Shown here piece after piece: positions 59,839 to 62,653 of a stretch of DNA of 64,000 nt. The translations under genes were made by a program, and so were the position numbers. Under the pieces are notes generated by a model, which searched no databases, was not told the DNA's origin, and saw only the letters and a list, made by a program, of their open reading frames with translations. Numbering within the stretch: position 1 is the stretch's first letter; each line of letters opens with the position of its first letter. The stretch lies in assembly GCA_000165345.1 (NCBI GenBank), contig CM000432.1, positions 800,001-864,000 on the forward strand, written 5' to 3'.

Positions 59839-62653
59839 TTATATTTCTCTATTTGAATTATGAGGTTTGAATGGGAAAGTATAAATAAGAGGTTTAATGA
59901 TAAGGTTGCACAAATCAGAATGACTCATAGCTGAATCTTTGAAAATTGTATATTTTTGGTGATCAATATTACTAATACAGGTATTTAAGATACTTGAATC
60001 GTCGATAAGAAAATTATTATGCATATTACCATCGTGTTTGTTAGAATTGAATGAGATTGATTGAATATCTTTAAAGAATTCAATTAAAGAATTCAATAGG
60101 TTTTGATTGACATTAAATGGAAGTTGTTTTCGAAGAATTTCAGTAGAGTCTTGAATTCTATACCATGTTCTATGTAATAATAATATAAAAGGTATTATTA
60201 GGTTATTTTGAAGAATATTTTGATTTAAAAATTTTAACTGATCTTCATAAATAAGGCTGTAAATATGTTTAGTTTGTTGATACTTTTGATCAATATTCAT
60301 CAGATTATTTAGATTTTCAGAGTTTTCTGGGTTATATTTAAATTCATTACACTCATTCTTTATTTCATCAAAAAATTCCTCCAATAAATTTGATGATGAT
60401 ATTATTTTACTTGTATTATTATTTACTTGGTTTTTTATCCAAATATAGTAGTTTATAGTAATAGAAGCTAATTGGAAGAAACTTGGTTTACTGTTGAATT
60501 TTCTTGTATTAATAATATAAAAAAGAAACTTTTGACTTTTAATAGCTTTTGAATATAAACATGAACCAATTTTTGCAATATTATATGGAATAAATAAGTA
60601 AGATCTTAAATAGAATTCAAAAGATAAACAATTACTTGGCAAGTCTTGATTAATTATTAAACCAGTTTTCTTTGCAACTTGTATTATTTGATTTAACTTA
60701 TCACAAGCTATCATATATGCTTCTGAGCCTTGATTAAAGCTTGAAAGAATATTTCTTTGATTTCTATTTTTACCTTTCTTACTAATCCAACGTTTAATGG
60801 GATTTTCATCCTCAACAAATTCTTGATGTATTACTTCCCATTCATTTGTAGAAGTTAATATAGAATCAAATCTATATAATAAATTAATATATTGATTTGA
60901 TTGATCTTTCCATTTTAATGTTGGATCAACTTTAATTTCTGTAATATCTTGTGAAAAGATGTTATAGTTATTCTGATTCTGATTCTGGTTCTGGCTTTGA
61001 TATATTAGAAATTTATTTAACAATGAAGAATGGCCAATCAATATTTCAGAAATTAAAATTGAAATATAATTTGGATCATTAAAAAGAGCTGCTTTAATCA
61101 TCCTCTTACAAATATTCTCAAAATTTCTTTCCCCAGTTAACTTATAAGTTCCTTTTTCTTTCAAAAAATCATTAAGATCTGAAATTTCTTCATCTTTTTC
61201 TCTATGATAAAGTATGTAAGTAAAAGCATAATCAATAATTCTAATTGAATCTTGTCCTATATTTGCGATAAATTTTAGATTATTCGAATGATTATTCTTA
61301 TCTTGGAAAAGTTTAATTATTCCAAATAATTTCTCATTTATAGATTCTTTTAAAATTATGATATTCCCAAAATTTAAATCACAATGATAATATTGAAAGT
61401 ATCCTGTGGATGAAAATGACTGAATTGTAAGAATTATTAATTTTAATAAATTCAAAATAGCTTCCAACCATAATGCCCACCTTTTTTGAATATTTTCTTC
61501 ATTTAACCATAAAAACAAATCCTCACTTCTTAAATAATATAATAAATTATCCAAAGGAACACCATTAATATATTCCATAAATAAATAATTGGAAAATAAT
61601 GGCCTATATGGATCATTTAATTTTATTAAGCTTTTTTTTGAATTTGTTATAAAGAAATGTGATGGGCTTTTATTTAAATCTTTGACATTATGGTGAAAAG
61701 TTACAATACTTGGTGACAATTGATATTGGTCTAATTCTCCATCTTTTAAAACCATTGAAAATACTTCGCGAGTTAATAACAAACTTATAAGATTTTCTCT
61801 TTCCCAAATTTCTTTTTCAATTGAATGTACTCCTTTAAATGGACTTTTTATTGCCAAAAGTAGTTTCATATTTTCTGGAATCCATCCTGATTGAATATAT
61901 AAGCTTCCATGGAACCAAGTTCTTACATTCTTAATTCTTAATGGCATATTACAAGAATTTGCCATTATTTGAGATTTAACTAAATAATCATTATTTATTT
62001 TTGGTCTTAATACTGTTGCAAAAGTCACTGAACCATATTTTCCACTTAATACCTTCCATTTTAATTCAATATGCTTATTTTGATCATCATCCCAGAGAAT
62101 AATTCGTGTATTTCCTGGCTCATTTACTTCAAATATTGTCTCATCTTCCATATTATTCTTATTTATTGCTTTAGAATTGATTTGACATTCAAAGAGTTCA
62201 CTTAATGATGAACATAATAACTGAATACTATTATACTTTAAAATATGTTCCCCTACTGAGTTAACCAACTCATTAATTTTCTTAAAAAACCTTTTCTTCA
62301 ATTGATTTCCTACTTGAACTTTACTTGGACCAAGTAACTGTTCAATATTCTCAATTTTTATTCCTTCATTTTTATCTAACGAAAATGTATAAATAACTTC
62401 ATCTGTTTTTTCTCTCAAATTTACTAAAAATAAAGAATAGTTAAATATTATTCATAAGAATTTTATTGATTTAAAAATTAAACTTACCTTTTTCCTGAAT
62501 TTTAGAAATAACTTTATTTAAATCCAATTTTTTCTGAAATTTGATTATTTCTTTATTTTCTAGAGCTCCTATCCGAGCTTCATCAAATCTCTCAAGATGA
62601 TTTTTTTGTTGAGTTTGAGATGAAGTATTAGTTTCTTTTAAGTTATTTTTCAT
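59839..62653 (-). CDS. Protein-kinase-like (probably pseudokinase) protein, ~917 aa after splicing. Two exons, 62653..62488 and 62423..59839, joined by a 64-nt phase-1 intron.
   Basis: The 60-aa ORF (ATG 62653) reads ...QEK then AAAG|GTAAGT (donor = complement of 62487-62482). The acceptor TTTATTTTTAG ends at 62424. Exon 2 (from 62423) is phase-compatible (G+TA=V, then N, L, REKTDEV...) with the 859-aa ORF, whose apparent start is only a TTG. Kinase-like motifs are degenerate: HCDLNFGN (HRD loop), IIDYAF (DFG-like), LLLAIKSP (VAIK-like), FMEYINGVPLDNLLY (hinge). Confidence 0.65.
62424..62487 (-). other. Predicted 64-nt intron (AG|GTAAGT...TTTATTTTTAG)
   Basis: It has a consensus donor including the exonic AG, and a T-rich acceptor. 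The reading frame is restored across the junction. Confidence 0.65.

What the first reader, a model, noticed from the sequence alone, without database searches (positions are those of the whole stretch)
59839..62653. Kinase-like gene with a 5' exon hidden behind a 64-nt phase-1 intron; degenerate catalytic motifs suggest a pseudokinase
The 859-aa ORF has no ATG (the ORF track's start is TTG). Upstream, a 55-codon exon beginning with a genuine ATG at 62653 ends at AAAG|GTAAGT. The acceptor TTTATTTTTAG| at 62424 joins it in frame. The protein carries kinase-fold landmarks (hinge FMEYINGVPL, HCDLNFGN in place of HRDLKPEN, DYA in place of DFG, AIK). It lacks the Gly-rich loop and the catalytic-loop Lys, so it is probably catalytically inactive.
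Basis: partly seen in the sequence, partly recalled or inferred. Interest (0 to 1): 0.6.

Follow-up and report, generated by a model that had tools for sequence, protein, structure and literature searches.

The report
Annotated Cryptosporidium kinase-like gene, cgd4_3570

Summary
The window is C. parvum chromosome 4. The finding is cgd4_3570 / CPATCC_001680, named [quoted passage not shown].

- **Intron.** Seven species keep the intron at the same phase, and two lack it precisely.
- **Start.** Spliced that way, the window translates exactly to that protein.
- **Pseudokinase claim: not supported.** A Gly-rich loop (G194-x-Y-G-x-V), K259, E276, H-C-D415, N420 and D464 are invariant across 23–26 sequences from at least five paralog groups.
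- **Family.** It was found only in Cryptosporidium, sits in a tandem cluster, and is mostly signal-peptide-bearing.

One point stays open. A phase-0 splice donor lies three codons before the stop of the upstream paralog cgd4_3580 in all eight species, so a 3580–3570 fusion isoform is possible.

Verdict: already known. Interest is low to moderate.

The parts
62774..62791 (-).
   Evidence: Joining 62791..62774 + 62668..62488 + 62423..59839 translates exactly to QOY42079.1/P0010, 927 aa. The donor CAG|GTAAGA is kept in six species, with AAG| in C. bovis and AGG| in C. muris. The ATG is in frame only in C. parvum, C. hominis and C. meleagridis.
62669..62773 (-). Intron 1, 105 nt, GTAAGA...TTATAG, phase 0
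   Evidence: GC 20%. Lengths are 105/105/106/100/105/78/163 nt in other species. Baptista et al. 2022 state that all introns in the CPATCC annotation are RNA-seq supported.
62488..62668 (-).
   Evidence: The exon is open from its first base and its length is 1 mod 3 in every species that has intron 2. The LPSR codons differ from L008 only at synonymous third positions.
62424..62487 (-).
   Evidence: Same phase in 7 species with lengths 58-118 nt. Precisely absent in C. felis and L008.
59839..62423 (-). Exon 3 (codes Val67 second base to Ile927, plus stop TAA 59841..59839). Holds the kinase-like domain and the C-terminal helical, Cys-bearing extension.
62026..62043 (-). Gly-rich-loop equivalent G194-K-Y-G197-S-V199
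   Evidence: G194 and V199 are invariant, and Y196/G197 are kept in all but one paralog group. It lies between predicted strands beta1 and beta2. hhalign pairs it with PKA G52-x-F54-G55-x-V57, but with low probability.
61846..61848 (-). K259 (LAIKS), beta3 lysine equivalent
61795..61797 (-). E276 (W-E-R-E), alphaC glutamate equivalent, 17 residues after K259
   Evidence: Invariant. It lies in predicted helix 170-186 of the model segment.
61573..61578 (-). M349-E350, hinge (FMEYINGVPL)
   Evidence: Invariant. Aligned to PKA M120-E121 by hhalign, 94.8% probability.
61363..61386 (-). Catalytic loop H413-C-D415-L-N-F-G-N420
   Evidence: H, C, D and N420 are invariant. Aligned to PKA Y164-R-D166...N171 and to CDK2 HRDLKPQN.
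61231..61233 (-). D464 (IID-Y-A), DFG-aspartate equivalent
   Evidence: Invariant. The next residues vary across paralogs (Y/F/L/H/I, then A/S/T/M). It directly follows predicted strand 361-363 of the model segment.
62817..62822 (-). GTACGT, a phase-0 candidate splice donor three codons before the cgd4_3580 stop. Splicing to the intron-1 acceptor (intron 62822..62669, 154 nt) would fuse the 3580 and 3570 reading frames.
   Evidence: Present in all 8 species. In C. bovis it is GTAAGT, where the encoded Arg has become Ser. It is used in the fused public models of C. hominis UKH1/TU502_2012 and C. muris, and by inference in the near-identical fused C. andersoni protein. CGT is only 8.5% of Arg codons in this window. 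Its use in C. parvum is not shown.
62811..64000 (-). 3' part (last 395 codons plus stop) of the tandem paralog cgd4_3580. It runs off the window end.
   Evidence: Translation equals the C-terminus of P0007. It is 25% identical to 3570, E 7e-46. Family HMM E 5.6e-105.

Best explanation
The locus is the Cryptosporidium parvum gene cgd4_3570 (CPATCC_001680).

It encodes a 927-aa protein of the 'HCD' family, which was found only in Cryptosporidium. The protein has a very divergent protein-kinase-like domain (about residues 180-530) with two large insertions. This is followed by a roughly 400-residue helical extension with conserved cysteines.

Every residue of the kinase catalytic constellation is invariant across all paralog groups. 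These are the Gly-rich loop, K259 paired with E276 for ATP phosphate binding, D415 as catalytic base, and N420 and D464 for metal binding. The most likely mechanism is therefore an active atypical phosphotransferase, not a pseudokinase.

Its paralogs carry N-terminal signal-peptide-like segments, and the family keeps about eight conserved cysteines. The family therefore probably works in the secretory pathway or after secretion.

Shown: the gene structure, its identity with the public model, the kinase fold of the model, and the residue conservation. Inferred: catalytic activity, secretory location and substrate class.
For: - **Identity.** The three-exon CDS from the window equals QOY42079.1. 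Cluster names are 'Protein kinase-like domain containing protein (HCD gene family)' and, in UniRef, 'Protein kinase domain-containing protein'.
- **Introns.** Phase, donor and 3n+1 exon lengths are conserved across species, and two species have lost intron 2 precisely. The CPATCC annotation's introns are stated to be 100% RNA-seq supported.
- **Catalytic residues.** G194, V199, K259, E276, M349, E350, H413, C414, D415, N420 and D464 are invariant in 26 sequences, with mean column identity 26%.
- **Family range.** An exhaustive HMM search of 1.84 billion representatives found 11 proteins; the nine with a source name are Cryptosporidium and the two unnamed are Logan assemblies.
- **Signal-like N-termini.** They are present in the other paralog groups but not in 3570.
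Against: - No Pfam kinase model matches, even at E<=10. There is only a sub-threshold ABC1 hit.
- PDB sequence searches find nothing.
- The fold evidence rests on a predicted structure, not a solved one.
- The beta3-Lys and alphaC-Glu assignments rest on motif order and predicted secondary structure. I could not read model coordinates, so there is no residue-level structural alignment.
- The catalytic-loop Lys and the DFG Gly are missing, and no APE motif was recognised. Such changes do occur in some pseudokinases.
- No experimental data on activity, expression or localisation were found.
- 3570 itself has no signal peptide in either start model.
Confidence: 0.62

Rival explanations
1. One reading: a catalytically dead pseudokinase that acts as a scaffold or binding protein.
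For: - The catalytic-loop Lys is replaced (HCDLN), DFG is DYA, and the first Gly of GxGxxG is Ser.
- There is no Pfam Pkinase match.
- Large insertions lie between beta2 and beta3 and between beta7 and beta8.
Against: - Pseudokinases are normally recognised by loss of at least one of the beta3 Lys, the HRD Asp or the DFG Asp. Here all three are invariant in every paralog group over the whole genus, as are the alphaC Glu and the catalytic-loop Asn. That pattern is hard to explain without selection for catalysis or at least nucleotide/metal binding.
- From general knowledge, lack of the HRDLK Lys is normal in several active kinase families.
Confidence: 0.2
2. cgd4_3570 is not, or not only, a stand-alone gene. 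Splicing from the conserved GTACGT donor three codons before the cgd4_3580 stop (62822) to the intron-1 acceptor (62669/62668) would yield an ~1803-aa secreted protein with two kinase-like modules. The choice between this donor and the micro-exon donor would then decide between one-module and two-module products.
For: - A phase-0 GT donor sits at the same place in all 8 species. In C. bovis it stays a donor (GTAAGT) although the amino acid changes from Arg to Ser. The rare CGT Arg codon is otherwise kept across the genus.
- Exon 2 is open from its first base in all 8 species.
Yet the micro-exon ATG is GTG in two species, out of frame in C. felis and C. bovis, and absent in C. muris.
- Only 19 nt separate the 3580 stop from the micro-exon ATG.
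- Fused models exist for C. muris, C. andersoni and C. hominis UKH1/TU502_2012.
- 3570 alone lacks a signal-like N-terminus while keeping the family's invariant cysteines.
Against: - The RNA-seq-guided annotations of C. parvum (CPATCC), C. hominis UdeA01 and C. tyzzeri keep two genes and use the micro-exon donor. Baptista et al. say all their introns are RNA-seq supported.
- The fused models may be ab initio artefacts.
- The conserved GTACGT can partly be explained as the conserved C-terminal codons Val-Arg.
- The Logan contigs I retrieved for the upstream paralog were genomic, and L008's origin could not be settled, so I have no transcript evidence.
Confidence: 0.3
3. An active phosphotransferase of the kinase-like fold whose substrate is not a protein, for example a glycan or a small molecule, as in POMK or the aminoglycoside/choline kinases.
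For: - The family shows no recognisable APE or substrate-binding activation-segment motifs.
- The HxDxxxxN plus D pattern without the catalytic-loop Lys is shared with small-molecule kinases (general knowledge).
- The only Pfam hint is the ABC1 atypical kinase family.
Against: - The Z differences are too small to discriminate.
Confidence: 0.12

Closest known systems
GenBank QOY42079.1 / WKS77382.1 / KAL5369079.1 (CryptoDB cgd4_3570, CPATCC_001680), 'Protein kinase-like domain containing protein (HCD gene family)'
   Same: The window's three-exon CDS translates to this 927-aa protein exactly.
   Different: The original Iowa II model (EAK87767.1, 770 aa) started at an internal Met.
Eukaryotic (Hanks-type) protein kinase superfamily
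   Same: - Same order of Gly-rich loop, beta3 Lys, alphaC Glu, hinge, HxDxxxxN and metal-binding Asp.
- Hinge to catalytic loop is alignable by profile.
   Different: - No Pfam Pkinase or PK_Tyr_Ser-Thr match.
- HRD Arg is Cys, the catalytic-loop Lys is Asn or His, and DFG is D[YFLHI]x.
- About 55-residue insert between beta2 and beta3, and about 30-residue insert between beta7 and beta8.
- No recognisable APE motif.
- Roughly 400-residue helical C-terminal extension with conserved cysteines.
Lineage-specific secreted kinase families of Apicomplexa (Toxoplasma ROPK and WNG, Plasmodium FIKK); comparison from general knowledge
   Same: A genus- or lineage-restricted, tandemly expanded, highly divergent kinase-like family whose members mostly start with a signal-peptide-like segment.
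   Different: No sequence relationship is detectable: the exhaustive HMM search returned no protein from outside Cryptosporidium. Secretion and localisation are untested. Unlike WNG kinases, a Gly-rich loop is retained.
[not shown]
   Same: Same fold, and non-canonical HRD and DFG motifs.
   Different: Pseudokinases typically lack one or more of the beta3 Lys, the catalytic Asp or the DFG Asp. Here all are invariant across the family.
ABC1/UbiB atypical kinase-like domain (PF03109)
   Same: It is the only kinase-type Pfam model with any signal. It covers hinge to catalytic loop, residues 345-452 of the protein.
   Different: E 0.03-0.09, far below the gathering score (12.3 against 22.9 bits), and only 3 of 23 members match. 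This is not membership.

Membership tests
   GTAAGT...TTTTTAG, phase 1, in-frame join to 916/927 aa. Retention gives a stop after 5 codons.
   7 species have intron lengths 58-118 nt, including a difference of 47 nt. Exon 2 is always 1 mod 3. The intron is precisely lost in C. felis and L008.
   Only indirect evidence. The intron is in the CPATCC annotation, whose introns are stated to be 100% RNA-seq supported.
Protein-kinase-like (PKL) fold / ePK superfamily | Bilobal kinase fold | tested here: met
   [not shown]
Protein-kinase-like (PKL) fold / ePK superfamily | Significant match to a curated kinase sequence model (Pfam Pkinase, PK_Tyr_Ser-Thr) | tested here: not met
   No hit at E<=10 for this protein or for any of 23 family members. 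Only hhalign against a small home-made kinase profile is significant (94.8%).
Protein-kinase-like (PKL) fold / ePK superfamily | Catalytic constellation: Gly-rich loop, beta3 Lys, alphaC Glu, HxD Asp, catalytic-loop Asn, DFG Asp | tested here: met
   G194xYG197xV199, K259, E276, D415, N420 and D464 are invariant in 26 sequences. The catalytic-loop assignment is supported by profile alignment. The Lys and Glu assignments rest on motif order and predicted secondary structure.
Pseudokinase | Loss of at least one of the beta3 Lys, the catalytic Asp or the DFG Asp | tested here: not met
   All three are present and invariant.
Pseudokinase | Absence of phosphotransfer activity | not testable with these tools
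   This needs a biochemical assay.
Cryptosporidium HCD gene family (database name) | Sequence membership and an invariant H-C-D catalytic-loop motif | tested here: met
   Identical to QOY42079.1, which carries that name. HCD is invariant in all members. Family HMM E 2e-264.
Secreted / secretory-pathway kinase | N-terminal signal peptide | tested here: not met
   For 3570, the maximum Kyte-Doolittle 12-residue mean in the first 60 aa is 0.27. Paralogs reach 2.3-3.35. The feature would be met only through the hypothetical 3580-3570 fusion.
ABC1/UbiB atypical kinases | Pfam PF03109 match above the gathering score | tested here: not met
   12.3 bits against a cut-off of 22.9, E 0.09.

The most novel reading that the evidence does not exclude
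cgd4_3570 may be the second module of a two-module secreted kinase. A splice donor conserved across the genus, embedded in the last codons of cgd4_3580 (GTACGT, 62822..62817), may join the two tandem paralogs into one ~1800-aa protein. That would lend 3570 the signal peptide it lacks. Choice between this donor and the micro-exon donor 49 nt downstream would then switch between one-module and two-module products. If so, the HCD cluster would be Cryptosporidium's own secreted, catalytically competent kinase family, absent from the published kinome surveys I could search.
Probability: 0.28. Interest if true: 0.55.

Novelty: already known. Interest (0 to 1): 0.27.

Why it matters

What could matter to Cryptosporidium biologists is the family itself. 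The tools found it only in Cryptosporidium, it sits in a tandem cluster, and it is mostly signal-peptide-bearing. Its kinase catalytic residues are fully conserved. It is nevertheless absent from the two published apicomplexan kinome surveys I could search, and I found no functional literature.

Cryptosporidium is not known to have the ROPK-type secreted kinase expansions of other apicomplexans (general knowledge). An active secreted kinase family would therefore be a candidate set of host-interaction effectors or drug targets.

The unresolved 3580/3570 junction also bears on how many proteins this locus really makes.

Tried and rejected
- **Pfam and PDB sequence searches.** Pfam scan of the protein and of 23 family members found no kinase model, only noise and a sub-threshold ABC1 hit. 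PDB sequence searches with the single protein and with the family profile found nothing.
- **Second word-indexed homolog search.** Run with the family alignment, it returned the same six proteins, because the candidate list was saturated.
- **AFDB50 fold search.** The library was not available.
- **N-lobe-only hhalign.** It pairs the Gly loops but at only 10% probability.
- **Transcript contigs.** The Logan contigs retrieved for the 3580 protein (P0009) were genomic. L008 has a continuous ORF, but its upstream 54 nt look like an intron 3' end, and its 'start' is a GTG chosen by a prokaryote-style gene caller.
- **Literature.** Searches for cgd4_3570/3580/3590/3600, the CPATCC ids and 'HCD gene family' found nothing relevant. 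'HCD' in the kinome papers refers to DYRK kinases. Supplements of five papers held no entry for these genes.
- **MGFISQ as an N-myristoylation signal.** The Ser is one position off the usual MGxxxS/T pattern, so I did not pursue it.
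Full report
**What the window is.** The region is AT-rich (24-28% GC) and the genes are eukaryote-like. The cluster around that hit holds C. parvum QOY42079.1 / WKS77382.1 / KAL5369079.1 (CPATCC_001680, CPHLJ_4g3570). They are named 'Protein kinase-like domain containing protein (HCD gene family)'. Joining three window segments, 62791..62774 + 62668..62488 + 62423..59839 (- strand), gives a translation identical to that 927-aa protein. The window is therefore C. parvum chromosome 4 and the finding is gene cgd4_3570. The partial ORF upstream on the same strand (62811..64000) is the C-terminal 395 residues of cgd4_3580. 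That gene is a paralog: 25% identity, E 7e-46.

**The observation.** The arithmetic is right.
- ATG at 62653; the exon ends AAAG|GTAAGT at 62488.
- Intron 62487..62424: 64 nt, 12.5% GC, acceptor TTTATTTTTAG.
- Phase 1; the join makes a Val codon and continues the 859-codon ORF.
- Retaining the intron would stop translation after five codons.

Orthologous loci give strong independent support. I compared C. hominis, C. meleagridis, chipmunk genotype I, an unnamed species from a Logan assembly, C. felis, C. bovis and C. muris.
- The donor G|GTAAGT and phase 1 are kept.
- Intron length varies: 64, 64, 61, 58, 111, 118 and 59 nt.
- The upstream exon changes only by multiples of three (181, 181, 181, 214, 193, 178, 187 nt, all 1 mod 3).
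- In C. felis and in contig L008 the intron is missing and the ORF is continuous.

Baptista et al. 2022 state that all introns in the CPATCC annotation, which contains this intron, are supported by RNA-seq.

- The ORF does contain ATGs, from codon 90 on, and the old 770-aa Iowa II model began there.
- A Gly-rich loop exists (see below).

**The 5' end.** Current models add an 18-nt micro-exon (MGFISQ, 62791..62774) and a 105-nt intron (62773..62669). This part is less settled than the databases suggest.
- The micro-exon donor is conserved. Its ATG, however, is GTG in chipmunk genotype I and the Logan species, out of frame in C. felis and C. bovis, and absent in C. muris.
- Exon 2 is nevertheless open from its first base in all eight species.
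- The LPSR codons just after the acceptor differ between C. parvum (CTA CCA AGT AGA) and L008 (CTC CCG AGC AGG) only at synonymous third positions. These codons therefore appear to be translated.
- Only 19 nt separate the 3580 stop from the micro-exon ATG.
- In all eight species a GT donor lies in phase 0 exactly three codons before the 3580 stop. It is GTACGT in seven. In C. bovis it is GTAAGT, where the encoded Arg has become Ser but the donor is retained.
- CGT makes up only 8.5% of Arg codons in this window.
- Splicing from that donor to the intron-1 acceptor fuses the two reading frames. Public models in C. muris (CMU_018720, 1817 aa) and C. hominis UKH1/TU502_2012 (1803 aa) use exactly this junction, and the near-identical 1821-aa C. 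andersoni protein (cand_016400) spans both modules in the same way.

I could not obtain transcript evidence. The Logan contigs retrieved for the upstream paralog were genomic. I record a fusion or alternative-donor isoform as an open possibility (about 0.3), not a result.

**Is it a kinase?**

Sequence methods largely fail.
- There is no Pfam kinase hit for this protein or for any of 23 relatives, only a sub-threshold ABC1 match.
- PDB sequence searches find nothing.
- An exhaustive HMM search of 1.84 billion representative proteins with the family profile found 11 proteins. The nine with a source name are Cryptosporidium, and the two unnamed ones come from Logan assemblies.

These hits define a family that I found only in Cryptosporidium and that lies in a tandem cluster: CMU_018720-018750 in C. 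muris and cand_016400-016430 in C. andersoni. In C. parvum the next gene upstream of 3580 is also a member (E 4.6e-148).

Structure prediction settled the fold.
- A first full-length model was poor (pLDDT 50).
- With a 23-sequence alignment spanning at least five paralog groups, residues 100-730 gave pLDDT 80.6 and pTM 0.82.
- The Foldseek top 50 are all kinase domains.
- A profile-profile comparison with a small alignment of PKA, CDK2, CK1delta, Src and PknB aligns beta5, hinge, alphaE and catalytic loop at 94.8% probability, E 5e-8.

**Is it a pseudokinase?** The alignment of 26 sequences has mean column identity 26%, and the distant paralogs share 19-24% identity with this protein. These columns are invariant: G194, V199, K259, W273, E276, M349, E350, H413, C414, D415, N420 and D464.

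They fall in canonical order on the predicted secondary structure:
- G-x-Y-G-x-V lies between beta1 and beta2.
- AIK lies in a strand.
- W-x-R-E lies in the following helix, 17 residues later.
- ME lies at the hinge.
- HCDxxxxN lies after the long alphaE helix.
- IID lies after a short strand.

All residues whose loss defines a pseudokinase are therefore retained under strong purifying selection. The missing catalytic-loop Lys (Asn here, His in other paralogs) and the DYA in place of DFG are not diagnostic of inactivity. From general knowledge, several active families lack them. I therefore favour an active atypical phosphotransferase (about 0.6), with a pseudokinase at about 0.2. A non-protein substrate is not excluded.

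**Other family features.**
- Five cysteines are invariant (C137, C146, C414, C505, C688) and three more in the C-terminal part are nearly so.
- All other paralog groups start with a strongly hydrophobic signal-like segment (Kyte-Doolittle 12-residue mean 2.3-3.35). The 3570 orthologs do not: 0.27 in C. parvum.
- This points to a secretory-pathway family and makes 3570 the odd one out. It is one of the reasons the fusion reading is worth testing.
- The roughly 400-residue helical C-terminal extension has no informative structural match.

**Comparison with what is known.** The gene, its introns and its kinase-like nature are all in public databases. UniRef also calls several members 'Protein kinase domain-containing protein'. 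I found no paper that discusses the family. The two kinome surveys do not list cgd4_3570 or cgd4_3580 in their text or held supplements. Searches by gene id found nothing. In kind it resembles the lineage-specific secreted kinase expansions of other apicomplexans (ROPK, WNG, FIKK; general knowledge), but no sequence link to them is detectable.

**Verdict.** The exon-intron observation is correct and non-random. The kinase-fold interpretation is correct. The pseudokinase inference is not supported. The finding as stated is already known, so its interest is low to moderate. The residual interest lies in the uncharacterised HCD family and in the unresolved 3580-3570 junction.

Noticed in passing
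window 62811..62823 (- strand), with L001-L007: The last codons and stop of cgd4_3580 (ATT GTA CGT AAA TAA) are identical at the nucleotide level in five species, and a sixth (L003) differs only in the first codon. They contain a phase-0 splice-donor-like GTACGT, which is also kept in C. muris and is GTAAGT in C. bovis. Only 19 nt follow before the annotated start of cgd4_3570.
   Followed up: partly
window 62774..62791 (- strand): The annotated start micro-exon is more conserved in sequence than coding exon 2 across the C. parvum to Logan-species clade (TTTAC[A/G]TGGGATTnAnTTCTCAG). Yet its ATG is GTG in two of those species. Its role as start codon, 5' UTR or regulatory element is unclear.
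   Followed up: partly
window ~60967..60993 (- strand): An in-frame (CAGAAY)n run encodes QNQNQNQN inside cgd4_3570. C. hominis and C. meleagridis are one QN unit shorter (927 against 925 aa). It is a length-variable coding microsatellite.
   Followed up: no
L010 425..3205 (- strand), directly upstream of cgd4_3580 in C. parvum, outside the window: The neighbouring 926-aa gene is a further HCD-family member (family HMM E 4.6e-148, motif YQHCDLHASN, hydrophobic N-terminus). The C. parvum cluster therefore has at least three members. A 992-aa gene beyond it was not checked.
   Followed up: partly
P0007 residues ~50-60 and P0010 residues 8-11: The short motif LPSR(K) occurs near the N-terminus of both tandem paralogs. 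In 3580 it lies after the signal peptide (GTLPSRKAYQQ). In 3570 it is at the very start of exon 2 (KLPSRMK). It is conserved across distant species and could be a processing or sorting site.
   Followed up: no
L004 (C. felis) 2998..3300 and L008 55..300: Two Cryptosporidium lineages have lost the second intron of this gene precisely, while C. bovis and C. muris keep it. This is an example of intron presence/absence variation within the genus.
   Followed up: partly
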